Origin: Mustelus asterias
Taxonomy: Eukaryota
Length of the DNA stretch: 64,000 bases
Assembly: GCF_964213995.1 (NCBI RefSeq)
Contig: NC_135809.1
Location: 91,698,001 to 91,762,000, forward strand
Direction of reading: 5' to 3'
A model generated the notes under the pieces. That model was not told the origin of the DNA. It made no database searches and worked only from the letters and a program-made list of their open reading frames with translations. This document shows, piece by piece, positions 4,889 to 50,400 of this stretch. Within the stretch, counting starts at the first letter, position 1, and the number at the start of each line of letters is the position of its first letter. The translations under genes and the position numbers were made by a program.

Positions 4889-5060
4889 TATCCAAGACAT
4901 CGGAATCCTCTTCAATATCATCATCATCTTCCTAATGTTTTTCAACACATTCATCTTTCAAGCTGGCTTAGTCAAACTGCTAATTCATAGGTTTACAGGA
5001 ACCATTATTGTCACTGGTATTTACTTTGTCCTGAGTGTCAGCTTTCATGTCTGGATTCAG
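4889..5060 (+). CDS. TMEM138: TMEM138 internal coding exon (172 nt)
   Basis: tttttcag|T ATC CAA GAC...TGG ATT CAG|gtatgc. Confidence 0.93.
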
Positions 5061-19636: not shown

Positions 19637-20053
19637 TACCCATTCCTAGTACCCCCATATGAATTGAATCATATATTACTTGAGGACATTAATAAATAGC
19701 AGATGAAATATGAAGAGTTTTTTTGGAAAACACTATTCTGTGTCTTACACAGATCACCACTGTTATAAATTAATAGCTCCAGCAGGTGCCAAAAAAATTA
19801 ACCCGTGTGATTTGTAAAAATTACCCTCGATCATTTCAAAAACACTTATTTCCTCCCAGAGCCTCTGTTCCCCTCCGAACTGATCTTCCAACTGAGCCGC
19901 TTCTGACCAGCCCGGCCCGCGCAAGCGCACAGAACAGCGTGCCTCAGCCCTGTCAGCCAATCAGAGCGTTCAGACAGACTGACCAATCAGGCGACTGAAC
20001 GGTAAACCAATTAGAGCAGCGCACAGCTTCGGCGGCCGAAGGCTTTTGTCACC

Positions 20054-20320
20054 TGGGGGCGGGGCTCAGGGGCCCGAGGCGGGGATCAGGGGCCCCCGGG
20101 GGGTGGGGCGCAGGGGGCCTAGGAGGCGGGGCGCAGGGGGTCTGGGGGGCAGGGCGCAGAGGGCCCCGGGGGCGGAGCTCAGGGGGCCCGAGGGGTGGGG
20201 CCCGGGGGGTGGGGCGCGGGGTGCAGGGGGCGGGGCTCAGGGGGGCCCGGGCGGAGTTCATGGGCCCCGGGGGCGGGCTCAGGGCCCCCCGGAGGCGGGG
20301 CTCAGGGGCTCCGGGGAGTT
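20054..20320 (+). repeat. G-rich degenerate tandem repeat (GGGGCGGGGCTCAGGGGGCCC-like units)
   Basis: Repeated ggcggggctcagggggcccg / ggggcgcagggggcc units; strongly G-skewed. Confidence 0.8.
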
Positions 20321-20437
20321 GGTCTGAATCTCGGTCCCGGGAAATTTACCAAACCCAGCGCTCTCCGGGAAGTCGCAAATAAACCGAATCGAACCTGGGC
20401 CCGGTTACCAGGAAGTGACGGGGAGACGCTGGAAACT

Positions 20438-20451
20438 GTTGCTGAGGTAAC
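20438..20451. promoter_or_regulatory. RFX X-box-like motif just upstream of the TMEM216 ATG
   Basis: GTTGCT-GA-GGTAAC fits the imperfect palindromic X-box consensus GTYNCY-N0-3-RGYAAC. Confidence 0.6.
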
Positions 20452-20456
20452 GCAAA

Positions 20457-20466
20457 ATGGCGCGAG
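20457..20466 (+). CDS. TMEM216: TMEM216 exon 1 coding part (MAR+G)
   Basis: caaaATGGCGCGAG|gtgagt in a CpG-rich promoter; strong Kozak context and donor. Confidence 0.85.
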
Positions 20467-23400
20467 GTGAGTGAAAAGGTGGAGGTGAGGAGAATGAGGC
20501 TATTTGGGTGATGGCGAGAGGAGGGTTTGGTTGTGTTTGTTTCGGTGGCTGTCAGTGTGTGTGTGTGTGTGTGGGGGGGATGGGTGAATGGGGGGGATCT
20601 TTGTGTGTGTTGAAGTTCTATGTATGTGTGTCTCTGTCTGGGTGTATAGTAGGTGTATCAGTGGGTATCCAGTTTTAGAGTATGAAGTGTCCCAGCCCCG
20701 AAGAGCACATTTTATGCACTCACAATTCTGCACAGTCCTACAGCCAGCCAGTACCGAAAAGAGATTAATGAAATCCACCCACCTAATTATAAATTGCACA
20801 CTAAACTGATAACCTTGCAATGGAAACCTAGTCAACCAGTATTGGCTGGAAACATAGCTCTGCCTGGATTTTGTCCACTTGAGCATATTCAATGCTGAAT
20901 TATAACATCTTGCCATGTAAGATCAGCGGATACCGCAAGGATTAAGTCTGGACGTTCCTCGTCTGTCTAATGCTGTACCAGGCCACATGGTGTATTTTCA
21001 AATTGAGCACTTCCAGGAACTTATCTGCAACAATTTTAATGTCTTTTGTTTTCATTTGCAGCAAAACCTCCTCCAGTTGTATCCTTTTGTAATTTAAGAT
21101 TGGTGCAAAATTCACTCTTTTGCAGCTGCAAGCACAAAAAGAATCGTGGATTGGAATAGGACAACAAATGAGAATTGAAGTGTTGCTCTTCACTTCTGAG
21201 ACCTAGCTTCAAAGCCTCCCTTCTGCTGACATTTCCACATGAAATTAACTCTAGGTTTTTTGAACTTGGTTGATATGAGCCAACAGGACAAAGCAAGTTG
21301 TACTGAATTGACTGCCTCTTCGAGAAATTGTATCACTAGAAGATTAGACCAACACTGAAGTTCTTTTGAAATAATATAAGCTGCAGTAATAACATTTGTA
21401 TGTGGTGTTTCCTTAATGTTTTTCATCAGCTCTCCTTGTCTTCAATGGAAGTTTTGCTATTCCTGAATACCTGGTACTATGCTGCTTACTTTGTGGCAGA
21501 GATCCTTCTTTTCATATACAAAAGTAAGTTTTGAATCCTGGTGTGAGCGTATTTTAAATATGTTTTCTCTCTTTAATTAATGCCAACAGAACAATGTTGA
21601 TCACATTATTTTGTAATTAGTGAAAAAGTGTTTCTATATTTTGCTCTTTGATCATTTTATTGAAAAAATGTATTTTATGTCCATACTTTTTGCAGCAATT
21701 TTTAAATAGAGGAAAATGCAATGCTTACAATTTTTCTAAATTATATTCCTAGCAGTAAAATGAAAAATTCAGTCAAAAAATAAACATTTCAATTCAAGAC
21801 TGAAAACTCATAGTTTTTTCTTGTGATTTGTCATAAGAAATAGGAACAGGAAAAGGCCGTTCGGCCCCTTGAGCCTGCTCTGCCATTCAGCACGACTGTG
21901 GCTGATCCAACATTCTTCACTTACCTGCCCTTTCCCATAACCCTTGATTCCCTTACTGATCAAAAATCTATCTCAGCCTTAAATATGCACAATGTCTCTG
22001 CTCCCACAGTTCTCTTATGCAAGGAGTTCCAAAGACTTACAACTCTCTGAGAGAGGAAATTTCTCCTCATCTCCATCTTAAATTGGCGCCTTTTATTCTG
22101 AGACTGTCCCATGAGGGGAAACATCCTCTCAGCATTTACCCTGCCAAGCCCTTTAAGATTTTTATATATTCCAGACATGTCGACTGCCTGTAGAAAAAAA
22201 CTGAACATTAAAACAGTCTCCTTAAACATAAAAATATATATATACTTATAGGAATAGCACACTATCATCACAATCCCCACTGGGTACAGGTCCCCAACCT
22301 GAAAAAGAATCTCTTAGCCCCACCCACTGTTTCCTGCCCATTAGCCAATTCTCTAGCCATGCCTAGACTACCTCCAACACTGTGGACTCTTATCTTATGA
22401 CTTAACCTTTTTGAAGTACCTTGTTGAATGCCTTTTGGAAGTCCAAATACTCTACTGGTTCCCCTTTAAACACTCTTTTGAGGCTCCTCGAGAATCTCTA
22501 ATAAATTAGATATGATTTGCCTTTCATGAAGCCATGCTGACTCTGCTTCATTAGATTATGATTTTCCAAATGTACTTCCTTAATAATTGATTGCAACATT
22601 TTTGCAACAATAGATGTTGCCAGTGATACTTGATGGGGTACGATTCCATCAGTGCCTTCCACGCCTTTTTTTACTGGCCATTCTTTACATATTGGAGTAT
22701 CTTTCTACGTAAAGATGTTATATACTTTGTCATATGAGTCCACAGGTAATTTTCAGAGGTCATCACTGCTCAGATCAATCCTATTCTGTTTAGTTTACAT
22801 TTTCCAGCAGCATAACAATTGGAAATAGCTTATATGGTATATATCAGGGTAAGGCTGCTGAGGCCTCAGCCCCACACAACTGCTTATCTGGCTAATCATG
22901 CTTTCTCAGCACACATGGACCATAAAATCTTAAACTCTCGTAGCTGCACAACTTGATACCACATCATGGATTACAGAAACCCAAAGAACCAAATCTTTGA
23001 AATACTTAAAGTCAAACCTGGAGATTCATGCTGTTTTGTTGATTGTTTCACCAGCTTCTCCTAAAATTAACAACATCGAACTTGATGTCTCAACAAGTTT
23101 AAACAGTGAGTGACTGAGCTATAATATAGATTTCAGGTTTGATATCTACGCTGTTCCAAAATTGTTAATCTTAGCCACGATGGTTAACATTCCTATTTCT
23201 GATTATTATTTAAAAATCCCTATAGAATACGTGTGTCTTGGTTGTGATGCTGCTACAATTGAACTGAACATTGATTCCCAGGAGTAAAAATCTGATGTGA
23301 ATAAATGTCCATAAGGGATAGTACACATGGTACTGGACCTGTCAAAGAACTTTAGGAGAGAAAATTTAGTACAAAGTAGTAGAAAAAGTGCAAGATGAAT

Positions 23401-26400
23401 TGTGTGCCTGGACTAACTGATGTGTCACCAGGCTATAAATTAAAGCTATAATCTGTCAGGATAGCTCCACCAGATTCAGCACCAAGTGACCATCACTATA
23501 CTTCTGTGCATGTGTTATAGGGCTGCTTGTTCATTGTCTAAGTAAAATGTTAGAGTCTTGCAGCAAAGATATATTCCATAGGGTATAAAACTTGCATTAA
23601 CACAGAGCTTTAATATAATAAAATGTTCCAAGCTGCTTCACAATATTATCAAAAATAATTAACACTGAAGTATATAAGTAGATATTAATTTAAATGGAAG
23701 GGAGTGGGCCTTATTTGCGGAAGGATATATTGGCCTTGGAGGGAGTGCAGAGAAGGTTCACCAGGTTGATGCCAGAGATGGGGGGTGTTGATTATGAGGA
23801 GAGACTGAGCAGATTGGGTTTGTATTCGTTGGAATTTAGAGGGCTGAGGGGGGATCTTATAGAGACCTATAAGATAATGAAGGGGCTGGATAGGGTAGAG
23901 GTGGAGAGATTCTTTCCACTTAGAAAGGAAACTAGAACTAGAGGGCACAGCCTCAAAATAAAGGGGGGTCAGTTTAGGACAGAGTTGAGGAGGAAATTCT
24001 TCTCTCAGAGGGTGGTGAATCTCTGGAATTCTCTGCCCACTGAAGTGGTGGAGGCTACCTCGTTGAATATGTTTAAATCACGGATAGATGGATTCCTGAT
24101 CGGTAAGGGAATTAGGGGTTATGGGAATCAGGCGGGTAAGTGGAACTGATCCACTTCAGATCAGCCATGATCTTACTGAATGGCCGGGCAGGCTCGAGGG
24201 GCTAGATGGCCTACTCCTGCTCCTATTTCTTATGTTCTTATGTTTTCAAGGAGGGGAGAAAGGTGGAGATATTAGATATTAGGGCCCGGACATCTAAAGG
24301 AACACCTGCCAGTGATGGTCAAGTAAAGATGGGGATGCACAAGCATTAGACGAACATTGAGTCCTCTCAGTTGTGGGACCAGAGGAGGTTATAATGATTT
24401 GGGAGGGCCTAAGAGCATGGAGGGATTTGAAATCCAGGATGAGAATTTTAAAATTGAGACACTGTTGAACTGGGACCGATGTAGATCAGTGAGCACATGG
24501 GTGATAGGTGAACAAAACTTGGTATGAGTTAGGCTGTGGGGAGTAAACTTTTCGATGAGTTCATGATTGCAATGGGTGGAAGATGGGAGGCTTGCAAGAA
24601 GAGCATTGGAACAGGCAGGAGGTATCAAAAACATGGATAGGCTGAGGTAAGTGCAGAGATAGGCAATGCCATAGAGGCGGAAGTGAGCAGTCGTTATGAT
24701 AAAATAGGGGTTTGGAATAATCCAAATAGCATTCCCACGTTCCAGCCAATCTGGTTCAGTCTAGGAGAGATGGCTGGAGTCAGTATCTAGGAAATGGAGA
24801 TTTTGACAGATCAGCAGCAAGGGTCTCAATTTTCCTGATATTTAATTGGAGAAAATTTCTGCTCATCCAATATTTGGTGTCAGATAAGCTGTGTGATGAA
24901 TCATGTGCCGTGGAGGAGTCAATAGAAGCAGTAGTGAGGTAAAGGTGGGTGACAAAACTGTTGATATACTGGTTAGTTTTGGTTTTAACCTCGTGACAAC
25001 AGATGTTGTGGCAAAATGCAGCTCTTTGTTCAAGTAATTTCAAGAAAGACTGACTAGTTGGGATTAGATAGTTACTCCCTTCTGAGGATTGTTTGTTGTT
25101 TATTTGTAAGTCCTGAAAAGAAAGCCATTCAAAGGAACAAACAGAAGTGATTTGTTTGTTTCTTTAAACCTTTCATTCAAACCATAGGATTCCTACAGTG
25201 GAGCAGGAGGCCATTTAGCCCATCGAGTCTGCACCAACTCTCCAAAAAAGCATCTTACTCAGGCTCACCTCCCTGCCCTATCCCTGTAATCCTGTGCATT
25301 TATCATGGCCAATCCACCTAACTTGCACATTTTTGGACTGTGGGAGGAAACCGAAGCACCCGAAGGAAACCCACGCAGACACGGGGAGAACATGCAAACT
25401 CCACACAGACAGTGACCTAAGGCTGCAATCGAACTTAGGTTCCTGGCACTGTGAGGCAGCAGTGCTAACCACTGTGCTGCCCCAACTGGCTTAAAACTGC
25501 TTTATGTCTACTGACCTCAAAACTGGCTTACAACTTAGTTGATGAATAAACCTATTTATTTGCTTATAAAACTGCCCGATCTTCTTTTGAAATTACTTTT
25601 GCACTTATTAGAAATCCGAGCATGAATCCAAAGATGATTAACTGGTCTACTGCTTGCCCTGGAAATGTTTTCCCAGATTGCTACTTCTCTTGGCCAACTG
25701 ACTACTCGTAGGGTTGGGCAATAAAACGCTGGCCAGCCAGCGACACCCATGTCCCACGAATGACTAAAATGAATAAATACAATACTGTTAATGGCTGGTG
25801 CTTGCTTGATTTCACTGTCCATCACTAATATGCTTCCCTTGTGGCAGGATCCACTCTTGTCCTATACCAAATCTGTACTTCTGTGTATAAGTTTGCTTTA
25901 GCCCTACCTGTAATGTTTTTCTGCTTTGTTATATTGTAGGTCTGCTCTTGCCATATACCCCTGCAAATCTGATCTTGGATCTAGTAATGCTCTTCCTTTA
26001 CCTTGGAGTTGAAGTAATCAGAATATTTTTTGGTAAGTGATTGTCACGGTGGCCAGTATGTTTATCCTCACCAAGTTACTCCTTAATCTGTTCTTCTATT
26101 CCTCTGGCATTTTCTCTTCCTTGGGACCGTATCACCTTTTTCTCACCCCTCATCTCTCATTCAAGATATTCAATTTCTACTGCTTATCCAAGTACCATCT
26201 ACTCCACCTCTGTATTACCTCTTGGTGAGTCCATCTCGATTCTTTAAACTCTCTCTCGAATTCACTGACCTTCTATCCTTCCTTAATCACTCCCTCCAAT
26301 AGGAGGGAGTTTGTAACAACCCCCTTGACCTTGCCATCACATATGGCTTTGCAACTCTTGTGCCAATCGAAGTAAAGGCCATCTCTGATCACTTCTTTAA

Positions 26401-29400: not shown

Positions 29401-32400
29401 AGTGGTTACCAGGATAATCTGACTGGACACCATATCCTGGGATTAGAATTAACAAAACCAAGGGAAACGTTCATGTTTGGGGTCTGTCGGGTCTAATAAA
29501 GTTTGCAACAAAGCAAACACAGAAGTTAAAATGTACCACAAATAAAAACAGAAAATGCTGGAATTGCCCATCAGGTCAGGTAGCATCTGTGGAGAGAGAG
29601 ACAGAATTAACATTTCAGGTGGATGGCTTTTCATCAGAACTGAGTACTTATGAAAGTATTTGACATTACTGAACCTGAGAAAGTCTCTATGAAAGACCCT
29701 CAACATATAGAAATTCTGTGGTTGAAACTCCAAAAATGTCTTGTAGTTACAGAGACCAAGGCAAGATGCAATAGAATCTGACAAAGAAGGTGCTTGTAAT
29801 TAAAATTAAAAGAATCTTAGGAGAGGCGAGAGGATCGAAAGAGGGTGAGGAATCGAATAATAGAGGGAGTTTCAATGGTGGAATAGAACTGGAACATGAT
29901 CAATCATGAAGTGAGCAACTTGCCTTGATGAGAAGGAAGCAGTTCACTGTTAGAGACTGGGTTAAAGATTCCAGATGTTGACTTCTGTGGAACACATTGG
30001 ATGGGAAAGCAGTGAGCGGCATGGGGAAGTAAGGTGACATGGGGCAGAAACTGCTGATTGAGTGTTGATTAGGTGAGGGCTGATGCCTTTTGTGGCTCAA
30101 GAGTTTCTAGGATCATAAATGAAGTTTGAAGCACCAGAGGTGATAGAACTGTATTATAGCAAGAAGCCACCACTTTGGTGGGGAGGAGCGAATGTATAAT
30201 GAATTCCGTCATTAACTTACTGTTAATTTTTTCTTAGGTTCTAAGGGGAATCTGTCCCAGCGTAAAGTGCCTTTCTCTATTAGCCTGGTGCTACTTGGAC
30301 CATCAACAATAATGGCTGTTTATTATATGCTGCTCCAGACTTATGTTCTGAGGCTGGAAGTGATTATCAATGCAATACTATTAGTATTTTACGTCTTTGA
30401 ATTGCTTCTGTACATTGTGGGTTTGATAAGCTTCTCAAGGTGAGTTGAACAATATGTCCTTGTCAATTTCTAGATGTTAGTTTTTCTTAAATGGTTGTGC
30501 CTTGTCTGCATTTAGTTGTGTAAATCTCACTAATATAAATGTTGTTACTGGTTTGAAAGTGACACTGAAATTTTGAAGTATTTCCTGCCAATATGAACCC
30601 AATCCATCCTTCCTTCCTTATAAAAATATTGATTCTTGCTGCGTTGCAGTCTTGAGCAGTAGCGTGCCTCACACAACTTGGTCAGTGACCAATTTTCTTA
30701 TGAGAGACTGATCAGTTGGTGTCAGCAGGCTATTTTTCTTTGACAGCATTGAAATTGAGCCAATTCCTAGTCCAATATTCATTGGAGAATAACAGATAGT
30801 TATCAGGAGTGGGAACCTTGGCTAATGGTTTTTCCACTTCTAGACACAAGGCCCTTCTACTTCCCAGTTGTGATAAACTAACTCAACACTGAGGAAGTTT
30901 GAATTTAGGCCCTTCAACACATGTTGTTTAATCCAAAATCATATTGTGCATAGAATCATCACTATGAAAGTTATCCTTTTCTTCAATTATGGAGAAAGCT
31001 ATGTAATATGAGAGAAGACAGAGTACATCAAATGGTAATTGGGTGACATTTGGTTTTGTGAGACATCTTTTGTGAGGAAAGAAAGACTGAAGGAGGCAAA
31101 CCATTCTGGAATTCTCTGTCCTGAGAAAAGTGAGGTATATTAGGACACGGGGAATACATTTTGATTTCAAAATAGAGAATGCAAGAAAAAGGAATAGTGA
31201 GAAGGTTTTTTTTTAAACTTTGAATTAGAATAGCCTGAATCAAGTGAAAAGGATACTTCCACAAAACTGCTCCATCAGATAGAGTAGAGGCAGAGTGAGA
31301 AAAATTGATTGTACTGTACAAAAGTAAAAAAAGAACAAGGCTATCAGACTTACTTAAACTTGTTCCATCCGGTGGGCAGTGTAAACTTGTACAGTGAACA
31401 TTATCCTCAAATAATGTCACCTCCAGGAAAAAGCAAAAGAAACAAAACCCAATTCCCACTAAATTTTGAGATTGTTGGGATTTTTTGCTCTATGCAGGAA
31501 CTAGGAACAGGAGTAGGCCTGTGAACCTGCTCCACTATTTATTATGATCATGGCTGATCATCTAACTGAATAACCTGTTTCCTCTTTTCCCCCTATATGC
31601 TTTCATCCCTTCAGCCCCAAGAGACATATTCTTGAAAACATGCAATATTTTGTCCTCAACTGCTTTCTGTGGTAAAGAATTTCACTCTATGGGTGAAGAA
31701 AGTTCTCTTCATCTCAGTCCTGACAGTGCCAGAGATCCGGGTCCATTTCGGGCCTTGGGTGACTGATTGTGTGGAGTTTGCACATTCTCCCCAAGTCTGC
31801 ATTTGTTTCCTCCAAGTGCTCTGGTTTCCTCACACAGTCCAAAGGCGTGCAGGTTAGGCAGATTGGCCGTGCTAAATTGCCCCTTTAGTGCCCCAAATTG
31901 TGTAGATTAGGGGGACTAGTGAAGTAAATATGTGGGGTTACAGGTATAGGGTTTGGGTAAGATGCTCTTTCAGAGAGTTGGTGCAGATTTGATGGGCTGA
32001 ATGACCACCTTAAGCACTGCAGGGATTCTATGATTCTATAAATGGTTTACCCCATTTCCTCAGACTGTGACCCTTGGTTCTGGACTCACCTGCCACTGGG
32101 AAGATCCATCCTGTATCTATCCTATCCAGTCCTGTTAGAATTTTATAGGTTTCACTGAGATCCCCCCCATATTCTTCTAAACTCCACCGCATATAATCCT
32201 AACTGATTCAGTCATTCCTCAGACATCAGTCTCACCATCCCAGGGATCAGTCTGGTACACCTTCGCTGCACTCCCTCCATAGCAAGAACATCCTCCTTCA
32301 GATAAGAAAACTACACACAATATTCCAGATGTGGTCTCACCAAGGCCTTGGATAACTGCAGCAAGACATCCCTGCTCCTGTACTCAAATCCTCTTGCTCG

Positions 32401-34845
32401 GAAGGCCAGCATACCATTTACCTTCTTCACTATCTACTGTACCTGCATGCTTACTTTCAGTGACTTGTGTGCAAGGACACCCAGGTTTCATTGCACATTC
32501 TCTCCATGTTTGCATGGGTTTCCTGTGGGTGCTCCGGTTTCCTCCCACAGTCCAAAGATGTGTGGGTTAGGTTGATTGGACATGCTAAATTAACCCCTTA
32601 GTGTCCCGGGATGTGAAAGGTTAGCGGGATTAGTAGGGTAGCTAAGCGGGGATAGGACCAGGGTGGGATTGGTGTCGGTGCAGATTCGATGGGCCGAATG
32701 GCCTCCTTCTGCACTGTAGGGATTCTATGATCTATGAACCTCCTGTTAAATAATGGGGTTACATTAGCTACCTTTCAGTCCATGGGAACTGTTCTAGAAT
32801 CTATAGAATCTTGGAAGATGACCGCCAATGCATCCACTATTTCTAGGGCCATTTCTTTCAATACTCTAGGATGTAGATTATCAGGCCCTGGGGATTTATC
32901 AACCTTCAATCCCATCAATTTCCCCACACCATGTCCCAACTATAATAACCCCCATGAGTTCCATGGGGAAATCTCTAATTGACCTCCCTGTGGGACTTAT
33001 TGAATATGAGTTCCCTTGGTAACAGGCCTGCTCAGGTGGAACTCGTCATCTGAACGCTTTACAAGACAAACATCAGGAAGGATCTGCAGAACTATTATCC
33101 TAACTGAGATTTGTGTATGTATGCCATGGGGTAGTGGCTTTACTTTACGTTTAGCAATAAATACTGTTCCTTTCCAGTTGGGCTTCCTGAGATATTACAC
33201 CTACTCATACGGATTTCCTACAATTGCTCCCTCTCACTAAACACGGTGTTCCCAACGTTTTTGGTATGTTTGTGTGCTCCTTTGTGAAGACAGAACCAAA
33301 GTATGCATTTAGTTGGTCAGCCATTTCCTTGTTCCCCATTATAAATTTCCCTGTTTCTAATTGTAAGGGACGTATGTTTGTCTTCACCAATCTTTTATTC
33401 TTCACATACCTATAGAAGCTTTTGCAGTTGGTTTGTTTTGTTCCCCGCAAGCTTACTCTTGTACTCTATTTTCCCCTTTTTAATCATTCCCTTGGTCGTC
33501 CTTTGTTAAATTCTAAACTGCTTCCAATCCTCAGGCCTGCTGTTTTTTTCTGGCTGATTTGTATGCCTCTTCCTGATTTCCCCTGTAAATCATGGTTTGG
33601 CCACCTTTCCCGTTTTATATTTGCACTAGACAGGAATGAAGAACTTTTGTAGTTCACTCATGTGTTCTTTGAATGTTTGCCATTGCCTATCCACCATTAT
33701 CCCTTGAAGTAATATTATCTAATACATCATAGCCAACTTGCACCTCATACCATCACTCTTTTCTTTATTTAGACTCAGCACCCTAGTCTCAGAATCAACT
33801 ACGTTACTCTCCATCTTAATGAAAAATTCTATCATATTATGGTTGCTCATTCCACCCCCCCCGAAAAGGGGCCTCGCACAACTAGATTGCAGATTTCTCA
33901 TTATACAATACCCAGTCTAGGATGGTCTGTTCTTCGACTTGGTTCCTCAACATATTGGTCCAGAAATCCATCCCATGCATACTTCTGGAATTCCTTTTCT
34001 ATGGTATTGTTACTAAGTTCATTAGCCCAATCTAAATGCAGATTCAAGTCACCCATAATTATGTATGTTTCTTTATCACATGCATCTCTAATTTCCTGTT
34101 TAATGTCATCCCCAACATCACCACTACAGTATGGGGTCTATACACGACCTCACTAATGTTTTTTGCCCCTTGGTGTTTCTCAGCTGCACCCATACAGATT
34201 TCACATCATGGACATAATACCCTTACTCACTATTGCATTAATTTTCTCTTTAACCAGCAATACAAACCTTTTTGTCTGTCCTTCCTAAATACTGAATATC
34301 CCTGAATATCCTACATTCTTAAATGGCTGTGCAGTGTTTGCATTTGATTGTATAAATCTCACTCATATAAATCTTGATAAAAGTTTGAAAATAACATTGA
34401 AATTTAGAAATATTTCCTGCCAATGTGAAGCCCATCTACCTTTCTTCTTGTAAAAGTATTGCATTCTTTGCTACTACAGTCAAACAAGTTCCAGGAGTCT
34501 AGAATTGTTCATTATGATTCATAGTTTAAATTAATTAAACTTTTATCCCCACTTCTGGCAATGTTTTCTTCTCTCAGGAACATATCAAGTGTCCTTTAAA
34601 AGAAGCTGTAAAGATCTCATGATTGTATCACTCACCATGTGTTGTGGAAATTCATGCAAGGAAACACTGACTGAAAATCTAATCTAACTCTTTGCCTATG
34701 TGTTTAATGGGTCATTACCTCTAGTCCTATTGCTCTCTATTTAAAATATTGAAGTAATTTCCATGTGCAAGTATCTATGGTAGCTGAAAGACTATTCTAA
34801 TTTTTAAGTTTATTTTGTTTTCTTAGTGTAATCATCAATGACTGA
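20457..34845 (+). CDS. TMEM216: Transmembrane protein 216 (transition-zone MKS module, TMEM17/80/216 family), 144 aa; join(20457..20466,21062..21078,21430..21523,25940..26032,30238..30439,34827..34845)
   Basis: Translation MARAKPPPVLSLSSMEVLLFLNTWYYAAYFVAEILLFIYKSLLLPYTPANLILDLVMLFLYLGVEVIRIFFGSKGNLSQRKVPFSISLVLLGPSTIMAVYYMLLQTYVLRLEVIINAILLVFYVFELLLYIVGLISFSSVIIND* matches TMEM216 (LLPYP.ANL.LD, GNL.QRK, LLQTYVLRLE). It lies directly downstream of TMEM138. The last small exon is less certain. Confidence 0.93.
20555..20573 (+). repeat. (GT)n microsatellite
   Basis: gtgtgtgtgtgtgtgtgtg in TMEM216 intron 1. Confidence 0.8.
21062..21078 (+). CDS. TMEM216: TMEM216 17-nt microexon (A-K-P-P-P-V)
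   Basis: ttttcatttgcag|CAAAACCTCCTCCAGTT|gtatcctttt (U12 donor). It is required to bridge phase 1 to phase 0. Confidence 0.85.
21079..21429 (+). other. U12-type (minor spliceosome) GT-AG intron of TMEM216
   Basis: 5'ss GTATCCTTTT; branch-like TTCCTTAAT at 21409-21417, close to the AG at 21428-21429. Confidence 0.85.
21430..21523 (+). CDS. TMEM216: TMEM216 exon 3 (94 nt)
   Basis: LSLSSMEVLLFLNTWYYAAYFVAEILLFIYK; donor A|gtaagt. Confidence 0.92.
21833..22620 (-). mobile_element. Degraded CR1 fragment
   Basis: Tail cataagaaataggaacagg; ORF 21960..22280 RRNFLSQRVVSLWNSL. Confidence 0.7.
23704..24243 (+). mobile_element. CR1 3' fragment
   Basis: ORF 23694..24149 PYLRKDILALEGVQRRFTR...RTRGHSLK; tail ttcttatgttcttatg. 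Confidence 0.9.
24250..24900 (-). mobile_element. L2-like LINE fragment
   Basis: Remnant ITHVLTDLH...ILKF typical of L2 ORF2 C-terminus; purine-rich strand. Confidence 0.55.
25186..25482 (-). mobile_element. HE1-like SINE
   Basis: Reverse complement of the 6680 family, full length. Confidence 0.8.
25940..26032 (+). CDS. TMEM216: TMEM216 exon 4 (93 nt)
   Basis: SLLLPYTPANLILDLVMLFLYLGVEVIRIFFG; ag|...|gtaagt. Confidence 0.93.
26045..27460 (+). mobile_element. Degraded L2-like LINE fragment with nested tRNA-SINE
   Basis: Pyrimidine-rich strand; ccccctccttcaagtctgttgtcatcacccctctcctcaaaaaa (VPSSFK.AVITPLLKK-like). Confidence 0.55.
26413..26757 (+). mobile_element. tRNA-derived SINE sharing its 3' tail with CR1-like family B
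   Basis: A box tggcctagtgg, B box gggttcaaatccc; tail gggcaataaatgctgg..gacgcccatgtcccacgaatgaat. Second copy at ~39540-39878. Confidence 0.75.
28490..28910 (+). mobile_element. Ancient Deu-domain SINE (SacSINE1/AmnSINE1-like)
   Basis: ctctgagtcagaaggtt..gtgcagctctgatggagtg..gagatgttaa..ggtggatataaaagat..tcacattgct..; related copy at ~40310-40660. Confidence 0.55.
28950..29250 (-). mobile_element. HE1-headed SINE variant with alternative 3' tail
   Basis: Same head as HE1-like copies, but the tail is ..ctaggggattttcacagtaacttc..taagcctacttg; plus-strand copy at 38980-39240. Confidence 0.7.
30238..30439 (+). CDS. TMEM216: TMEM216 exon 5 (202 nt)
   Basis: GSKGNLSQRKVPFSISL...GLISFS; ag|...AG|gtgagt. 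Confidence 0.93.
31495..34310 (-). mobile_element. Long degraded CR1 (endonuclease-to-RT remnants) with nested SINEs
   Basis: ORFs 33205..33450 (KSFYRYVKNKR...EMADQLNAYFGSVFT) and 33719..33901 (NHNMIEF); SINE pieces at ~31725-32040 and ~32490-32735. Confidence 0.75.
34827..34845 (+). CDS. TMEM216: TMEM216 probable last coding exon (S-V-I-I-N-D-stop)
   Basis: Strong polypyrimidine acceptor tttattttgttttcttag|T GTA ATC ATC AAT GAC TGA, phase compatible. Confidence 0.6.
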
Positions 34846-41329: not shown

Positions 41330-41490
41330 TTGTCCTCCCCGCGCTTAGGGGGCGCTCTCCTGTCTGGGTGCAGTGATCCCTTGACGTGACCATTTGCGCG
41401 GAATGATGGGATACTGGAGGACTCGTGGTCGAAGAGATGGCGCTGCGAAAAGGTGGGGGAGCAGTGGACGCGTTGCTATCCCAACCAAAG
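41330..41490 (+). promoter_or_regulatory. TMEM80 promoter region with CRE-like site and X-box-like motif
   Basis: Local CpG enrichment; TGACGTGA at ~41382; GTTGCTATCCCAAC at 41472-41485 just inside intron 1. Confidence 0.5.
41437..41452 (+). CDS. TMEM80: TMEM80 exon 1 coding part (MALRK+G)
   Basis: gaagagATGGCGCTGCGAAAAG|gtgggg in a small CpG-rich region with CRE-like TGACGT upstream. Confidence 0.75.
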
Positions 41491-44400
41491 TGCTCTTGGT
41501 CGCCCTAAATAACTCTACAATAATACGATTGAGTTTAAAGATTGGGGTTTGTGAGAGATCGCAGTCGGAGCCGCACCGACTGAGAAATTTGCTTTGATTT
41601 TAAGGAGACGAACTTTGTTGCACATTGTAAAATGATTTGGTGAAAACATTTTAAAGCGCGTTACAAATGCATTGGGGATTTCACTTAATTTTTAATGGAG
41701 ACATGCAGAATAATGTTTATTTCTACCTCAAGCATCCCAATCCTATCCTAAAGATCCTATCCTTGTTGGGTCTAGTTTTACGGGTATTAATAATCCTCTT
41801 GATATCTTTGTGTTTGAGCTGAGATAGTGAGTTTCCCCCAAACTGCGGCTAGATGGTAGGCATATTTTCCCAATATCTATATTTTTGCGACAAGAATAAT
41901 AGGATAGCGATCTGGAGTGGGAATCCTGACAAATATTTCTTCACTTTTTTAATAGCCTAGGATGCTGAGAATGCAATATCTCAATTTAGATCAGCTGACT
42001 ATACAGACTGGGAATCGAATTTGGGATGTTTTGAAATTAAATGCTCAGTTACTTGCTGCCTTTTCCAGCTGCGCCATCTGTGCAATATTTTGGTTTCTTT
42101 ATTTTAATCATTAAATCTCACTTGCTGCATTATCAGCCAGCGGATGACAATACTGATATTGCAAACTTGGCATTATTGGCATATCATGGAAAAGATATTC
42201 ACTAATGCGATGACAATATCTCTCCCTCAATGTCAACAAAATGAAAGAGTTAGTCATCAACTTCAGGAAGCATAGTGGAGGATATGCCCCTCTGCATCAA
42301 TGGGGACGAAGTAGAAATGCTTGAGAGCTTCAGGTTTTTAGGTGTCCAGATCACCAACAACATGTCCTCGTTCCCCCAATGCCGACACTAGAATTAAGAA
42401 AGGCCACCAACGCCTCTACTTTCTCAGAAGACTAAGGAAATTTGGCATGTCCGCTTTGACTCTCACCAACCTTTACAGATGCATCAAAGAAAGCATTCTT
42501 TCTGGTTGTATCACAGCTTAGTATGGCTCCTGCTCTGTCCAAGACCGCAAGAAACTACAAAGGGTCGTGAATGAAGCCCAGTCCATCACTCAAACCAGCC
42601 TCCCACCCATTGACCTTTCTACATTTCCCGTTGCTTCAGAAAAGCCGCCAACATAATGAAGGACCCCATGCACCCCGGACATACTCTCTTCCACCTTCTT
42701 TCATTGGGAAAAAGGTACAAAAGTCTGAGGACATGTACCCAACCGACTCAAGAACAGCTTCTTCCCTGCTGCCATCAGACTTTTGAATGGACTTACCTTG
42801 CATTAAGTTGATCTTTCTCTACACTCTAGCTATGACTGTAATACTATATTCTGCACTCCTTCTCTATGTATAGTATGCTTTGTAGAGCGTGCAAGAAACA
42901 ATACTTTTCACTGTATACCAATACATGTGACAATAATAAATCAAATCAAAATAAACCCTATTTGCCAAACAGCTAGTATAAATTAATTTGGAAATCATCT
43001 ATATATGCAAAATCACGTTGATGAAATTGGTGTCTGGCTCAATCACCTCCAAGAAATGGTTATTGTAGAAAGATCATAGAATGGTTACAGTGCACGGGAG
43101 GAAGCCGCTTCTCTTGTCATGAATGTGCTGTCTCTCTGCAAGAGGAGCTCTGTTAGTCTTACTGCCCCACCTTTCCTCTTATTCCTGCAAACTTTTTCTC
43201 TTCAGGTAATGCCCCCTTTCAAAGATATAATAGAATCTGCCTCCATTACACCCTCAGGTAGTGCATTCCAGATCACAACCACTCACAACGTAAACAAGTT
43301 TTTCTTTAATTTGCTTGTTTTCCTCTTTAATCCAGGGGTCTATTACAGTTTGTAGTGTTTTCACTGTGGTTGTTGAGATAAATTGAAAATCCAAATCAGT
43401 CGTGGAATCTAGGGATGCATATGTGGAATTTTTTTTCCTCAGTTAGCCTATTATTAAATGCCGCTGTTTCTCATGAAAATTACCAGCCTTCTTGTCTGAT
43501 TCAAATAGGATATTTTATATTTCTATGACAATTATCAAATTGAAAAAGCTAAGTTTTAATTAAAGATTCAGTTATTGTGCTTCCAGTTTTTTTGCTAATC
43601 ACCTTAGATCATTGTCTCTCAGCCCTTCCATCAACTTAGGCTGTGTCTAGAGAGAGCATTTTGAGTTGAACAACTTTAGAGTTACGTCTAATGGTTAAAG
43701 GTTTTGCCATATGTGCTGGTAGAGGGTGAACAATTTGAGATGGTAAATTTAAAAACATAAGTACGCTGGAGAAAGTTAAAAGAGTATTAGCTTAAATTTT
43801 TTTTCCCTTTAGTATATTGGTACTAATTAATATTAAGTATTTTGTTTACATTAGTATTATTAATTCTCTGTTTTGCTTTACAGTGAAATCTGCTGTTGTT
43901 GTATCCTTTGGAATAAAATGAAGTGTGCCACCCAGTTTCAGGAGCTGACGTCTTGCAGTCCATAAGAACATAAGAAATAGGAGCAGGAGTAGGCCATCTG
44001 GCCCTTCGAGCCTGCCCCGCCATTCAACAAGATCATGGCTGATCTGAAGCGAATCAGTTCCACTTACCTGCCTGCTCCCCATAACCCCTAATTCCCTTAT
44101 CGATCAGAAAACTATCTACCCGTGATTTAAACATATTCAACGAGGAAGCCTCCACCACTTCAATGGGCAGAGAATTCCAGAGATTCACTACCCTCTGAGA
44201 GAAGAAGTTCCCCCTCAACTCTGTTCTGAACCGGCCCCCCCTTATTTTGAGGCTGTGCCCTCTAGTTCTGGTTTCCCTTCTAAGTGGAAAGAATCTCTCC
44301 ACCTCTACCCTATCCAGCCCCTTCATTATCTTATATGTCTCTATAAGATCACCCCTCATCCTTCTAAACTCCAACGAGTACAGACCCAATCTGTTTAATC

Positions 44401-47400
44401 TCTCCTCATAAGCCACACCCCTCATCTCCGGTATCAACCTGGTGAACCTTCTCTGCACTCCCTCCAAGGCCAATATATCCTTTCGCAAATAAGGGGACCA
44501 AAACTGCACACAGTACTCCAGTTGCGGCCTCACCAGTGCCTTGTACAGTTGTAGCAAGACCTCCCTGCTTTTATATTCTATCCCCCTCGCGATAAAGGCC
44601 AACATTCCATTCGCCTTCTTGATCACCTGCTGCACCTGCAGACTGAGTTTTTGCGATTCGTGCACAAGGATCCCCAGGTCCTTCTGCACAGTCGCACGAT
44701 GTAATTTTTCTCCATTTAAATAATATTCCAATTTACTATTATTTCTTCCAAAGTGGATAACCTCACATTTGCTAACGTTATATTCCATCTGCCAGATCCT
44801 CGCCCACTCGCTCAGCCTATCCAAATCTCTCTGCAGACTTTCCGCGTCCTCCACGCAATTCGCTTTCCCACTCACCTTCGTGTCATCAACAAACTTGAAT
44901 ACCCTACATTCAGTCCCCTCCTCCAGATCATCTATGTAAATGGTAAACAATTGAGGCCCCAGCACCGATCCCTGCGGCACGCCACTGGTCACCAACTGCC
45001 AACCAGAAAAGCACCCATTTATCCCAACTCTCTGCTTCCTGTTAGATAGCCAATCCCCAATCCACGCCAATACCTTACCCCTAACTCCGTGTACCCCAAT
45101 CTTCTGCAGCAACCTTTTGTGAGGCACCTTATCGAACGCCTTCTGGAAATCTAAAAACACCACATCCACCGGTTCCCCTCTGTCAACCGCACTAGTGACA
45201 TCTTCATAAAAGTCCAGTAGATTCGTCAAACACAAGCCCAGCTCAGCTCTCTTAAAGGCATGAATTCTAATACAAAATGTATTCCACAATGTACCAACGG
45301 CAGTTAACATTTGGGGTTGGTGTGGTGATTGAGGAGTTTCCTTGTGAGTCTGTGAAGGAGAAGTTCTTCTTCAGAGAAAATGCATTCTGCCTTCCAATCT
45401 GCCATTTTGTGTTTTTGGTTTCACACATTTTTAAGTAATTCAAAAACATTTCTGTCAGTTATTGCTAACTCTTGCATTTTATGATTTGTTCCTGGGAGGT
45501 GAGCCTCTCTGGCAAGGTTAGCATTCCTAACTCCCCTTGAGTCAGTGATGGTGAACCAGTACAATCCATCTGGTCTAGATACATTCACAGTGCTATTAGA
45601 GAGGGAGATATAAGATTTTGACTTGGTGGCTTTCAAGAAACAGTGACATAGTTCCAAAGTGATGTGTGGCATGGAGAGAAACTTGTAGTTGGTAATGTTC
45701 CCATGTGTCTGCTGCCCTTGTTCCTCTAGGTGGTAGAAATGGAAGGTTTGGAAGGGTGTTGAAGGAGCCTTGGTGAGTGCATCTTGTAGATGGTATGTAC
45801 TGCTGCCACTATGAGCCAGTAGTGGAGAGTTAACGTTTAAAGTAGTAGGTGGGTATTGATCAAGTGGGATGTTTTGTCCTGGATGATGCGAGTTTCTTCA
45901 GTGTTGTTGGAGAGCTGCACTCATCAAGGCACTTGGTGAATATTCTATCATATTCCCTGAATTGTGCCCTGTCAATGATGGATAGGCTTTGTTGAATCAG
46001 GTGAGTATGCACTGCAGAATTCTTAGCCTCTGATCTCCTGTTGTTGCCATAGCATTTATATGGCTGGTCTAGTTAAGTTTTTGGTTAAAGATGATCCCCA
46101 GGATGTTGATGGTGGGGTATTCAGCTATGATAATTCTGTTGGGTCCAAAGCTAATGGAATAACTCCAACATCTTGCTCAAATAGATTATTTTTATTTGTG
46201 AGCAACTGCAGTTTGATTCTCTTCAAAATCAATCTTTTTGCACATTCCTTTTGTTATCTAACTATTCTGCAGCCTGCTATTTGCTTGAAATTTGGGAATG
46301 GCCTTGAGATATTTACTTAAAAGAAGTATATAAATACAAATTATTGATCCTTTGTGGTGAGTGGCAGCAGATTGTTTAACTATGGAGAGTCAAACTCAAT
46401 GCTGTCCTTTCCAGCAGTGGGCATTGGATGTGTTGGCAGTGGGAATCGTGGCTGATTTTTGCCGCCCAAAAGAGGAAAACGATCAATTGTATCAGCACTG
46501 CTGCCAACTGAGTTGATAACATTTAACAAAGCACAGACCCGGACCTATTTGCTGCACGTAGTGGCCACATTAGAAGATGTATTAAATTAAGTCACCTCTC
46601 AGAATTTTAAAAAAAAATCTGGTATTAAGTATTAAGCAGGACATCTTTTCAATGCGCCTCAATAGATTGATTGAGCAATCCCCTCTCTGGGAATCAGCAT
46701 TTTCTATTTTAAATCCCATTTTCAGGAATGAGAAAATGAATTCTCAGCTGTTTTAGACTAAACTTGAGAGGTAAGTATGAGATTTTATCTTTGTAACTTA
46801 GTTGCAAAAACAAAAAGAATCAGTGACTGGTGGTTTCCATCTGTTTCCTGCATGGAACAAGGGCTGCTTACAGTACTTATTGTAAGAAGTCTCACAACAC
46901 CAGGTTAAAGTCCAACAGGTTTATTTGGTAACAAAAGCCACTAGCTTTCGGAGCGCTGCCCCTTCGTCAGGTGAGTGGGAGTTCTGTTCACAAACAGGGC
47001 ATATAAAGACACAAACTCAATTTACAAGATAATGGTTGGAATGCGAGTTTTTACAGGTAATCAAGTCTTAAAGGTACAGACAATGTGAGTGGAGAGAGCG
47101 TTAAGCACAGGTTAAAGAGATGTGTATTGTCTCCAGACAGGACAGTTAGTGAGATTTTGCAAGCCCAGGCAAGTCGTGGGGTTTAAGATAGTGTGACATG
47201 AACCCAAGATCCTGGTTGAGGCAGTCCTCATGTGTGCGGAACTTGGCTATCAGTCTCTGCTCAGCGACTCTGCGTTGTCGTGTGTTATGACAACGCAGAG
47301 TCGCTGAGCAGAGACTGATAGCCAAGTTCCGCAAACATGATGATGGCCTCAACCGGGATCTTGGGTTCATGTCACACTATCTTAAACCCCACGACTTGCC

Positions 47401-50400
47401 TGGGCTTGCAAAATCTCACTAACTGTCCTGTCTGGAGACAATACACATCTCTTTAATCTGTGCTTACCGCTCTCTCCACTCACATTGTCTGCACCTTTAA
47501 GACTTGATTACCTGTAAAGACTCGCATTCCAACCATTATTTTGTAAATTGAGTTTGTGTCTTTATATGCCCTGTTTGTGAACTGAAATCCCACTCACCTG
47601 ACGAAGGAGCAGCGAGCGCTCCGAAAGCTAGTGGCTTTTGCTACCATATAAACCTGTTGGACTTTAACCTGCTGTTGTGAGACTTCTTACTGTGTTTAAC
47701 CCAGTCCAACGCTGGCATCTCCACATCATTACAGTACTTACAGTAGTTTGTAATTTTTAGCAAGTTGGGTTGCCATGTTTTACCAATTTTCTTAATTCAT
47801 TTTTGCTTAACATGAGACATTTCCAAGGCCAGCATTTATTGCCCATTTCTAGTTGTCTTTAAGAAGGTGGTGATAGGCTGCCTTCTTGACCCATTGCTGT
47901 CTATTTGGTGAAGGTACTCCTAATTGCTACTAGGTAGGGGAGCTCTGTGATTTTGATCTAGGAATCTAGAAAATCCAGCCAGTTCAGAATATATACTGTC
48001 AGCGGAACAGAGACAGAGTTTACGGTAGAATCATGGCTTTACCTGACTTCTGGCTTTTGCCTTTTGGTGTTTAAAAAGTCAGCAGAAGTCCAAAGACATC
48101 AATAACTGAACTCTGCAGTGGATGATTTATTTTGCAATGTACTGTAAAATCATAAATCGCTTTTTGCACTCACATTTATGATTTCAGTGCATTGAATGTG
48201 GAGCAGAAATGTTTTCCCTTGTTATAAAACACACAAATTAGTTGGAAAAAGTGGACTTCTGATTTAAAAATTAGACTTTTGTTATCCGGTTTCTCTCTTC
48301 ATAATTTCCAGATACCAGGTCAGAAATCCTGGATGAAAACTCAGTACACTTGGTCCTGTAAAATTGTCTAAGATAATATTTGTAGTTTTCATTGCAGCAA
48401 TATTCCTTAACCACATCACAACAGCTCTCCTCCATCCCTCTACAGATAGTTTATTATTTCAACATGTTTTATTATTCATTTTATTTTCTTGCTACTTTGC
48501 TAATGGTTATCTACAAAAGTAAGTTTTACATTTGTAACTGTTTTGCTATAACTATTTATAATCATAGTATTTAAAGCATTGAGTCAAGGAATTATTTTCT
48601 TTTCACGTTTTAGGTCAAGCTTTCAGTTTTCCAGATGGTAATCTGGCCTTGGATCTGATTCTTCTGATTCTCATGGTAATACTGGAAGTGATAAGGCTAT
48701 ATCTTGGTAAGATGTTGCTTTAAATTATGTTGTATCACCCAATTGATGCTCTGTGGTATTACTACTGGTAGCCTGGAATTTGAGCACGGTTTTGATATTT
48801 AGTTGTAATTGTGTTCAGCCCCACTTGTCTTTTCAAAGGCTAGTGCTCAGAAATCTGTGGTCATTTTGGTGCTAATTGTTACTGTTGAAGTTTTCCTCGA
48901 TTTGTTCCTTCCCTTAGGAAGAGTATAGGTAGGTTATCTATGTTTGAAAGACAGCAGGATTGAATTTCTTTTTTTACACTTTCTTAAATAATAAATTGTT
49001 AATTTATAAAGATTACTTTCTGCCAATTGGGTACGAGTTTGAAACATGTTTTTTGTGTGATAGTGATTGCAAATCTGATGCTTTAAGGTGTGATAGATAT
49101 GTACTAAATATAATACCAGATGTTATGACATCCATGAAGGACACAGGGAGTCATCAATAGATCTCCCCATTGGCTTTGTGAAGTATGAACTTCTTTATTG
49201 AGGAAATCCAATGGGAAATGAGCTGCGGGTGATTAATATCTATTGCTCTAACCCGGACTGTTGTTGTAGGCCCCCAGGTACAGACTTGCTTGTTGTAAGT
49301 CGGGGGTGCGACTCTTCTTTTGGTTTCCAAGAAGGGTTTCTGGTGACGGGGAACTGGCCTTGGCTGAATTACTACACCAGATATACTATTACGTTATCCA
49401 TTGCTTTTCTAACTAGTGGCGTCATGCCATGTAACACAGTGGATCATCAGGAATGGATAAATCAATTTGTGTTTTTGTTCCATGTTGCTTTGGGATTTTT
49501 GCTCCTGTTTTGGGGATCAAGTTCCATATCGTTGCCCAATTTTCTGTGGAAACTGTAAATCAGTGGTTTTGATCATCATTATACATGTCTTCACTAAGTA
49601 CACAATTTTGTTTTACACAAAATAAACTTTATTTCAGGTAGCTAGTTTTATTATTGTAAATTCAAACAGGAAAACAATCAAGAATTTAACACCCAACAGT
49701 AAAAAGAGATTTGTCTTTTTCAAAAAAATCTTAATTGAATTCTCAAAAGTATACTTTTAAATTAATCTTTTGTGAAGTTGTTGTACATTTGATTGCTTGA
49801 TTGCACAATATCAGCAGGTAGTGAAATATCCAGGTTCCTTGACATGAGTGTATCTCCATTTCTAATTTCTGCCAACTTATTGATTCAACAAGGGAAGTAT
49901 TCGAGGCATAATTCACTTCAGTACAGGTGACCTTGGAAAGGGAAAAGTTCATGCTCCTGATCACTATCTAATAACTCCTGCTGGAATGGGTGGCTTTGTA
50001 GATATTGCCTTGATAGATTAATAGCTCTTTTTTTTTTATTCTTATGTGAAATAGTGCCCTCCTGTCAGGCCACTTGTGTATGTATGTATATATGTACAAC
50101 TGGATTAAACTAATTTCACTTTTTTACCAGATTCCATGTTGTACAGCTTCTATTCTGGGAGGATATCACAGTCTGGCAACAAGATGGGATACCGATTCCC
50201 TAGCCAAGCTAATTTGGGTTGGAAAAGCTTCCAGCTAACCAACTGAGTGTTCTTTCTGTGAGAATAGGTTTCAAAATCTGGTTTTAGAGATGGATAGATT
50301 GACCAAAGGTGGCTGCCTCAGCAGGTATTATTGAGAGACTGGGATGTGCAGCCATGCCTGAGAGTGTCTGGAGTATTTAGAGATTCTTGAGCTGCTCACG

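What the first reader, a model, noticed from the sequence alone, without database searches (positions are those of the whole stretch)
21062..21429. TMEM216 uses a 17-nt microexon plus a U12 minor intron
Seen: exon 1 ends in phase 1 and the LSLSS exon starts in phase 0. The gap is bridged exactly by a 17-nt exon ending at a U12 donor (GTATCCTTTT), with a TTCCTTAAT branch near the AG. From memory, human TMEM216 joins exon 1 directly to a slightly longer exon (GKRLSST) with no such intron. Inference: the ancestral TMEM216 was a minor-intron gene, and the mammalian lineage lost the microexon and U12 intron by an acceptor shift. Gene predictors would easily miss this.
Basis: partly seen in the sequence, partly recalled or inferred. 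Interest (0 to 1): 0.75.

Follow-up and report, generated by a model that had tools for sequence, protein, structure and literature searches.

The report
Cilia gene's minor intron amniotes lost
In this shark the ciliopathy gene TMEM216 splices in a 17-base exon followed by an intron with the signals of the rare "minor" spliceosome, a layout shared with its neighbour TMEM80 and likely with zebrafish, which the ancestor of reptiles, birds and mammals likely lost, so fish models of minor-splicing disease would mis-splice a cilia gene that patients do not.

Summary
The gene is TMEM216 of a smooth-hound shark. Spliced contigs from two runs join 20466 to 21430 with exactly the 17 bases of 21062-21078 between them. 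Intron 21079-21429 has a U12 donor and branch site, and its donor pairs with the genome's own U11 and U6atac snRNAs. The tandem paralog TMEM80 has the same 17-nt exon and U12 intron.

Much is already catalogued. RefSeq has the microexon. A zebrafish tmem216 intron is listed as minor and rnpc3-responsive. Human TMEM80 is U12-type and human TMEM216 is not.

Every amniote group, not only mammals, lacks the microexon's last three residues, so the loss likely falls on the amniote stem. The three residues amniotes keep match the first three of the amphibian microexon. That favours a deletion that fused the microexon's 5' half to the next exon (about 0.6) over an acceptor shift (about 0.3). No amniote DNA was available, so timing and mechanism rest on proteins. 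The scan's index holds no earlier TMEM216/TMEM80 note; similar layouts were noted in other genes.

The parts
20457..20466 (+). TMEM216 exon 1, coding part (M-A-R + first base of the next codon), phase-1 U2 donor at 20467
   Evidence: joint at 20466 in contigs of X13 and X14
20467..21061 (+). TMEM216 intron 1, major (U2) type, 595 nt
   Evidence: no U11 pairing
21062..21078 (+). 17-nt microexon (exon 2), gives A-K-P-P-P-V, ends in phase 0
   Evidence: letters between the joint in X13 and X14; RefSeq protein P0001
21079..21429 (+). U12-type GT-AG intron, 351 nt
   Evidence: a contig of X1 covers it unspliced
21079..21088 (+). U12 5' splice site GTATCCTTTT
   Evidence: duplex with the genome's own U11 (-9.6 kcal/mol) and U6atac (-7.4)
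21126..21126 (+). cryptic U2 acceptor inside the U12 intron, joined to the exon-1 donor in one low-depth contig; skips the microexon and meets a stop after 20 codons
21409..21417 (+). U12 branch site TTCCTTAAT, 12 nt before the intron end
21430..21523 (+). TMEM216 exon 3 (L-S-L-S-S exon, 94 nt)
25940..26032 (+). TMEM216 exon 4
   Evidence: loose ends
30238..30439 (+). TMEM216 exon 5
34827..34845 (+). TMEM216 exon 6, coding part to the stop codon
   Evidence: acceptor AG ends at 34826
41437..41452 (+). TMEM80 (tandem paralog) exon 1, coding part, phase 1
   Evidence: related shark proteins P0060, P0068
43884..43900 (+). TMEM80 17-nt microexon, ends on Val in phase 0
   Evidence: matches related shark proteins; junction not seen among the joints displayed
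43901..48424 (+). TMEM80 U12-type intron (donor GTATCCTTTG, branch TTCCTTAAC at 48403-48411), same codon position as in TMEM216
   Evidence: human and mouse ortholog in MIDB
48425..48518 (+). TMEM80 exon 3 (L-S-S-I-P exon, 94 nt)

Best explanation
Shark TMEM216 splices a 17-nt exon that lies between a major intron and an intron with U12 signals, so its full-length protein likely depends on the minor spliceosome; this layout likely predates the TMEM216/TMEM80 duplication and was likely lost once, on the amniote stem, by a deletion that fused the microexon's first 8 nt to the next exon. Shown: the splice junctions, the U12 motifs and their pairing with the genome's own U11 and U6atac, the identical layout in tandem TMEM80, and loss of the reading frame when the intron is retained or the microexon skipped. 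Inferred: the major spliceosome takes intron 1 and the minor one intron 2; the microexon is constitutive because it carries the frame; amniote exon 2 is the microexon's 5' half plus old exon 3, so amniote intron 1 keeps the microexon's old acceptor. The last 9 exonic nt and the U12 intron went either in one imprecise deletion or as a precise intron loss plus a three-codon deletion. A variant joins microexon base 5 to the intron's final CAG.
For: Junction contigs. U11 duplex -9.6 and -6.6 kcal/mol for the two intron-2 donors against -2.1 to +0.6 for the other 7 of 9 introns; U6atac -7.4 and -6.8 against -0.3 to +2.8. U11, U12 and U6atac genes are in the genome. TMEM80 has the same exon phases, the same 17-nt exon 2 and 94-nt exon 3; the human and mouse TMEM80 minor intron also follows a GTG (Val) exon end. 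A zebrafish tmem216 intron is 'minor' and responsive in both rnpc3 datasets (PMC11347168 Table S6). In 44 hand-picked non-amniote proteins the segment before L-S-S has 6 residues in 38, 5 in 4 teleosts and 7 in 2 frogs, ending in V/I/A in 43. None of 52 amniote proteins has V/I/A there; 34 of the 35 with an exon-1-type start have 3 residues. Salamander G-R-R-G-R-V minus three residues equals marsupial G-R-R. Position 2 is K/R in 40 of 44 non-amniotes and 47 of 52 amniotes; an intron-derived codon would be K/R with probability 0.02-0.125. A published zebrafish primer that straddles an acceptor reads G-R-Q-P, like sauropsid G-R-Q (PMC7425700; my reading). Length changes of this segment recur (teleosts -1 residue, two frogs +1). 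Deletion outweighs conversion for U12 introns (PMC2831892; PMC10639083).
Against: No amniote or amphibian genomic DNA was seen (the metagenome scan found none), so exon structures outside shark, and the human c.35 boundary taken from a paper, are inferred from proteins. Position 3 is Gln in 20 of 26 sauropsids, as an exonised CAG acceptor would give. An arowana gene model has R-Q just before L-S-S (P0271), probably an intron tail read through, so R-Q can arise from intron sequence. The sequences are related, so the K/R match counts as about one event, and selection for basic residues could mimic it. Skipping of the microexon to a cryptic acceptor in the U12 intron occurs in shark, which is the first step an acceptor shift needs. 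The U12 duplex energy separates the introns poorly (-8.9 and -8.0 against up to -7.4). That the zebrafish minor intron is intron 2 is inferred. intronIC was not run.
Confidence: 0.6

Rival explanations
1. Acceptor shift: a new AG 8 nt upstream of the U12 acceptor let the exon-1 donor skip the microexon in frame, and the microexon and U12 donor then decayed inside a merged major intron.
For: Gln (CAG) before L/R-S-S in 20 of 26 sauropsids; microexon skipping to a cryptic acceptor seen in shark; R-Q before L-S-S in an arowana model; a spadefoot-type frog has an extra Gln at the junction (P0217).
Against: It needs the K/R at position 2 to come from intron sequence (0.02-0.125 by chance), and the match to amphibian G-R-R to be coincidence. 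In shark coordinates the shift would give V-H-Q. No in-frame branch-site remnant is visible by eye in amniote read-through models (weak after some 300 My). PMC10639083 calls intron sliding 'at most very rare'. Arg to Gln at a CpG codon can explain the Gln; monotremes show Gln at position 2.
Confidence: 0.3
2. Amniotes kept a shortened 8-nt exon with a converted (U2-type) intron behind it, at least in sauropsids, so nothing was fused.
For: The U12 catalogues exclude only a minor intron in human and mouse; no sauropsid DNA was seen.
Against: Amniote gene models that read through intron 1, or fuse TMEM138 to TMEM216, run straight into x-R-Q-L-S-S or G-K-R-L-S-S. No amniote TMEM216 model I printed shows an intron tail abutting L-S-S, as shark, caecilian and newt models do. 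Human exon 2 spanning this site is recalled, not shown by a call.
Confidence: 0.06
3. The loss is mammal-specific.
For: Only human and mouse were checked in U12 catalogues.
Against: All 26 sauropsid proteins tallied lack the terminal Val; the 10 with an exon-1-type start have 3 residues (9) or 4 (1).
Confidence: 0.04

Closest known systems
Zebrafish tmem216 minor intron 14:25040329-25040417(-) (Olthof et al. 2024, PMC11347168 Table S6; one supplementary row seen)
   Same: Same gene; classed 'minor' and responsive to rnpc3 loss; zebrafish numbers the F-x-L-N-G-W exon as exon 3, as in shark (PMC7425700).
   Different: About 89 nt against 351 nt; the teleost microexon is predicted at 14 nt. It is a table row only: the searched main texts do not discuss its history or its absence from amniotes. 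Its position as intron 2 is inferred.
Human/mouse TMEM80 minor intron (chr11:698889-700141; MIDB PMC6717393, PMC6800510, PMC9992838; supplementary rows seen)
   Same: Paralog; GT-AG minor intron after a GTG exon end; retained in RNU4ATAC patient cells; the shark TMEM80 in this window has the same layout.
   Different: TMEM80 kept the intron in amniotes; TMEM216 did not. Olthof 2024 classes it 'minor-like'.
U12 intron losses in vertebrates (Lin et al. 2010, PMC2831892; passages seen)
   Same: Loss by deletion is commoner than conversion; 8 losses among 180 clusters.
   Different: [quoted passage not shown] A 2026 preprint counts 34 zebrafish minor-intron genes whose human orthologues lack one (list not readable).
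Tmem138-Tmem216-Tmem80 cluster of basal vertebrates (Venkatesh et al. 2013; only the reference-list entry seen, content recalled)
   Same: The window holds TMEM138, TMEM216 and TMEM80 head to tail.
   Different: The paper could not be read, so whether it mentions the microexon or the U12 intron is unknown.

Membership tests
U12-type GT-AG intron | 5' splice site RTATCCTTT | tested here: met
   GTATCCTTTT at 21079; 4 in the window against 0.69 expected
U12-type GT-AG intron | Branch site TTCCTTRAY about 10-20 nt before the 3' end (consensus recalled) | tested here: met
   TTCCTTAAT at 21409-21417, 12 nt before the intron end; 6-nt perfect complement to the genome's own U12 snRNA; the motif alone is not enriched in the window
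U12-type GT-AG intron | Donor pairs with U11 and U6atac, unlike neighbouring introns | tested here: met
   2 of 9 introns pair, the two intron-2 donors
U12-type GT-AG intron | Excised at these ends in transcripts | tested here: met
   Contigs of X13 and X14
U12-type GT-AG intron | Organism has a minor spliceosome | tested here: met
   U12, U11 and U6atac above Rfam cut-offs; U4atac not searched
U12-type GT-AG intron | intronIC/PWM score above the minor threshold | not testable with these tools
   No intronIC or reference matrices available
U12-type GT-AG intron | Splicing depends on minor-spliceosome components | not testable with these tools
   Shown in print for a zebrafish tmem216 intron only
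TMEM216 (Transmemb_17, PF09799) | PF09799 match and closest named relatives TMEM216 rather than TMEM80 | tested here: met
   Exon 5 51.1 bits against a cut-off of 26; 62% identity to human TMEM216, 43% to a shark TMEM80; downstream of TMEM138; no tree built
Microexon (3-27 nt; size range recalled) | Short internal exon included in mRNA | tested here: met
   17 nt
Regulated neural (SRRM4-type) microexon | Length a multiple of 3, alternatively skipped (features recalled) | tested here: not met
   17 nt; skipping shifts the frame; no clean 20466>21430 skip among the joints of 4 runs (contigs drop rare forms)
Intron loss with loss of adjacent exon sequence (amniote TMEM216) | Nucleotide homology of the amniote acceptor and first codons to the ancestral microexon | tested here: inconclusive
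   Protein-level match only; no amniote DNA

The most novel reading that the evidence does not exclude
TMEM216 is a datable loss of an ancient minor intron on the human lineage: one deletion on the amniote stem removed the U12 intron and half of its microexon from the Joubert/Meckel gene while its paralog TMEM80 kept both. As a result tmem216 mis-splicing contributes to the ciliary phenotypes of zebrafish u4atac/rnpc3 models through a route that does not exist in patients.
Probability: 0.35. Interest if true: 0.6.

Novelty: new member of a known kind. Interest (0 to 1): 0.42.

Why it matters
Minor introns are very stable in vertebrates, so a dated loss in a disease gene, with a paralog that kept the intron, is a natural pair for asking whether dependence on minor splicing matters. 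It also bears on disease models. Zebrafish u4atac and rnpc3 animals show ciliary defects, and a tmem216 intron is rnpc3-responsive in fish but the human gene is not U12-type. A 2026 preprint picked candidates by overlap with human data and used tmem216 only as an epistasis control with tmem107l, so a fish-only contribution of tmem216 was outside its filter. That contribution is untested. For annotation, several RefSeq isoforms read through the U12 3' end and give false N-termini.

Tried and rejected
Metagenome scan for vertebrate TMEM216 DNA: 162 pattern matches, none related, so there is no amniote nucleotide test. The branch+AG motif alone is not significant, and the U12 duplex energy discriminates poorly. 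Other frame-restoring candidates in 20467-21429 (10 passed a crude filter) were rejected by the contigs. Identity as TMEM80 was considered from the Y-K-S exon end and rejected. Papers not held: Venkatesh 2013 and one tried PMC id. Supplements not readable: PMC9501576, file 4 of PMC6800510 and all bioRxiv files, including Dataset 1 of 10.64898/2026.08.20.745718, which may already list tmem216 among zebrafish minor-intron genes without a human counterpart. The ZCRB1 paper's supplements hold no tmem216 or tmem80. Nine literature searches showed no main text on this intron's history; one search found 2 papers with 3 of its 4 terms, of which I read passages of one.

Full report
Observation. The sequence at the given coordinates is as described. 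Coding exon 1 (20457-20466) ends in phase 1. A 17-nt exon (21062-21078) follows a pyrimidine tract and CAG. The next intron opens with GTATCCTTTT, carries TTCCTTAAT 12 nt before its end, and closes at CAG 21429. Six exons give a 144-aa protein identical to RefSeq TMEM216-like isoform X5 of Mustelus asterias (P0001), a PF09799 member, 62% identical to human TMEM216 and 43% to a shark TMEM80. The window is therefore likely from that shark or a close relative. Skipping the microexon shifts the frame; retaining the intron gives a stop after 35 codons.

Transcript evidence. Four of the 14 listed runs were laid on 20380-21600; all are assembled contigs. X13 and X14 join 20466 to 21430 with exactly the 17 microexon letters between. 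X1, another organism, has a microexon one letter different, joined from a donor at 20446. X2 shows the microexon as loose ends. One X1 contig covers the microexon and the whole intron unspliced, and one low-depth X13 contig joins exon 1 to a cryptic acceptor at 21126. Contigs cannot give inclusion levels, and the library type of X13 and X14 is not on record.

U12 class. GTATCCTTT occurs 4 times in the window against 0.69 expected; the branch pattern alone is not enriched. The genome holds U12, U11 and U6atac genes. Of 9 introns of TMEM216 and TMEM80, only the two second introns pair with the genome's own U11 (-9.6 and -6.6 kcal/mol; others -2.1 to +0.6) and U6atac (-7.4 and -6.8; others -0.3 to +2.8). 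Both have a 6-nt perfect complement to U12 at -20/-21, but so does one major intron, and U12 duplex energy separates them poorly. intronIC could not be run.

Surroundings. The window holds TMEM138, TMEM216 and a second PF09799 gene, TMEM80, head to tail. This cluster is published for basal vertebrates (Venkatesh et al. 2013; reference entry seen, content recalled). TMEM80 repeats the layout: phase-1 exon 1, 17-nt exon 43884-43900 ending on Val, donor GTATCCTTTG, branch TTCCTTAAC, 94-nt exon 3. Related shark proteins carry the predicted residues; my attempt to see its junction failed on repeats. The intron therefore likely predates the duplication. A TMEM17-type paralog elsewhere in the genome has no intron at this position. 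Lamprey proteins have the six-residue segment, and oyster and coral proteins a similar one, but no DNA was seen, so the intron's age beyond jawed vertebrates is open.

What is catalogued (supplementary rows seen). Human TMEM80 is U12-type and human TMEM216 is marked 'isU12 FALSE' (PMC9992838; PMC6800510). MIDB lists Tmem80/TMEM80 with a GTG exon end before the donor and has no Tmem216 in 8 files (PMC6717393). Zebrafish tmem216 intron 14:25040329-25040417 is 'minor' and responsive in both rnpc3 datasets (PMC11347168). A zebrafish knockout paper puts the F-H-L-N-G-W guide in exon 3, and its primer straddles an acceptor and reads G-R-Q-P (PMC7425700, one section and passages; my reading). This fits a microexon as exon 2, but I did not map the catalogued intron. 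Human c.35-2A>G fixes an acceptor inside the Gly codon of G-K-R-L-S-S (PMC11393691 passages; P0251).

Timing. From the proteins I hand-picked 96 vertebrate TMEM216 sequences. I left out most duplicate isoforms, non-amniote models with aberrant N-termini and models lacking the L-S-S exon, and kept 17 amniote read-through or TMEM138-fusion models for the residues before L-S-S. Non-amniotes (44): six residues in 38, five in 4 teleosts, seven in 2 frogs; V/I/A before L-S-S in 43. Amniotes (52: 26 sauropsids, 3 monotremes, 6 marsupials, 17 placentals): never V/I/A; three residues in 34 of the 35 with an exon-1-type start (echidna read by eye). One change on the amniote stem is the simplest reading (about 0.85). 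It rests on proteins plus the human and mouse catalogues. Models of shark, caecilian and newt read through an intron tail that spells F-L-N, F-L-T or S-L-T before L-S-S, compatible with a U12 branch site in amphibians (inference).

Mechanism. Salamanders have G-R-R-G-R-V, caecilians G-K-R-R-A-V, coelacanth G-K-H-T-P-V; marsupials have G-R-R, placentals G-K-R, sauropsids x-R-Q/H. The amniote residues match the microexon's first three. Position 2 is K/R in 40 of 44 non-amniotes and 47 of 52 amniotes, while a codon taken from an intron tail would be K/R with probability 0.02-0.125; as one evolutionary event this gives roughly 8:1 or more for deletion, before selection. Against this: Gln stands at position 3 in 20 of 26 sauropsids, as an exonised CAG would give; an arowana model shows R-Q before L-S-S; and shark transcripts can skip the microexon to a cryptic acceptor. 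Arg to Gln at CpG, or a deletion that spared the final CAG, also explain the Gln. Published surveys find deletion commoner than conversion and sliding rare (PMC2831892, PMC10639083; passages). I put deletion/fusion at 0.6, acceptor shift at 0.3, others at 0.1.

Novelty and verdict. The feature is real, but it is a further case of a known kind: RefSeq has the exon, and a tmem216 minor intron is catalogued in zebrafish. A 2026 preprint counts 34 zebrafish minor-intron genes whose human orthologues lack one (sections 14 and 16 and passages read; supplement closed), and tmem216 may be on that list. Nine searches showed no main text on the shared origin with TMEM80, the amniote-stem loss or its mechanism. 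The scan's index has no TMEM216/TMEM80 note and no look-alike stretch. What is worth keeping is the dated loss in a ciliopathy gene, rare for vertebrate minor introns, and the untested caveat for zebrafish models. Interest 0.42.

Noticed in passing
window 4875-12073, 20457-34845, 41437-51614 (+): TMEM138, TMEM216 and TMEM80 lie head to tail, the cluster reported for basal vertebrates; TMEM138-TMEM216 fusion gene models occur in catshark, turtle, lizards, a vulture, echidna and deer.
   Followed up: partly
window 20447-20456: A second donor (GTAACG) 10 nt upstream of the start codon is used in a contig of run X1 (another organism), joining to the microexon and leaving out the ATG. Human TMEM216 is also reported to use two exon-1 donors.
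   Followed up: no
window about 23055-23105: RefSeq isoform X2 (P0003) adds a 17-residue cassette exon from intron 3, with AG and GT ends in the window; no transcript check.
   Followed up: partly
window 21397-21429: RefSeq isoform X4 (P0002) starts inside the U12 intron and reads through its branch site; similar read-through models exist for zebra shark, caecilian, newt and many bird TMEM80 proteins, and betray the U12 branch site in frame.
   Followed up: partly
L008 about 1469-1575 (G000:C13): The TMEM17-type paralog has a likely acceptor 11 nt before V-S-S and no intron at the U12 position.
   Followed up: partly
proteins P0326, P0384, P0268, P0306; P0206, P0217: The microexon-coded segment is one residue shorter in teleosts (14 nt predicted) and one longer in two spadefoot-type frogs.
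   Followed up: partly
window 20040-20320: G-rich, GC-rich degenerate repeat just upstream of TMEM216 exon 1, possibly G-quadruplex-prone promoter sequence.
   Followed up: no
   Followed up: no
window 42200-48000 and other introns: Introns are full of high-copy SINE/LINE-like repeats that attract thousands of contigs.
   Followed up: no
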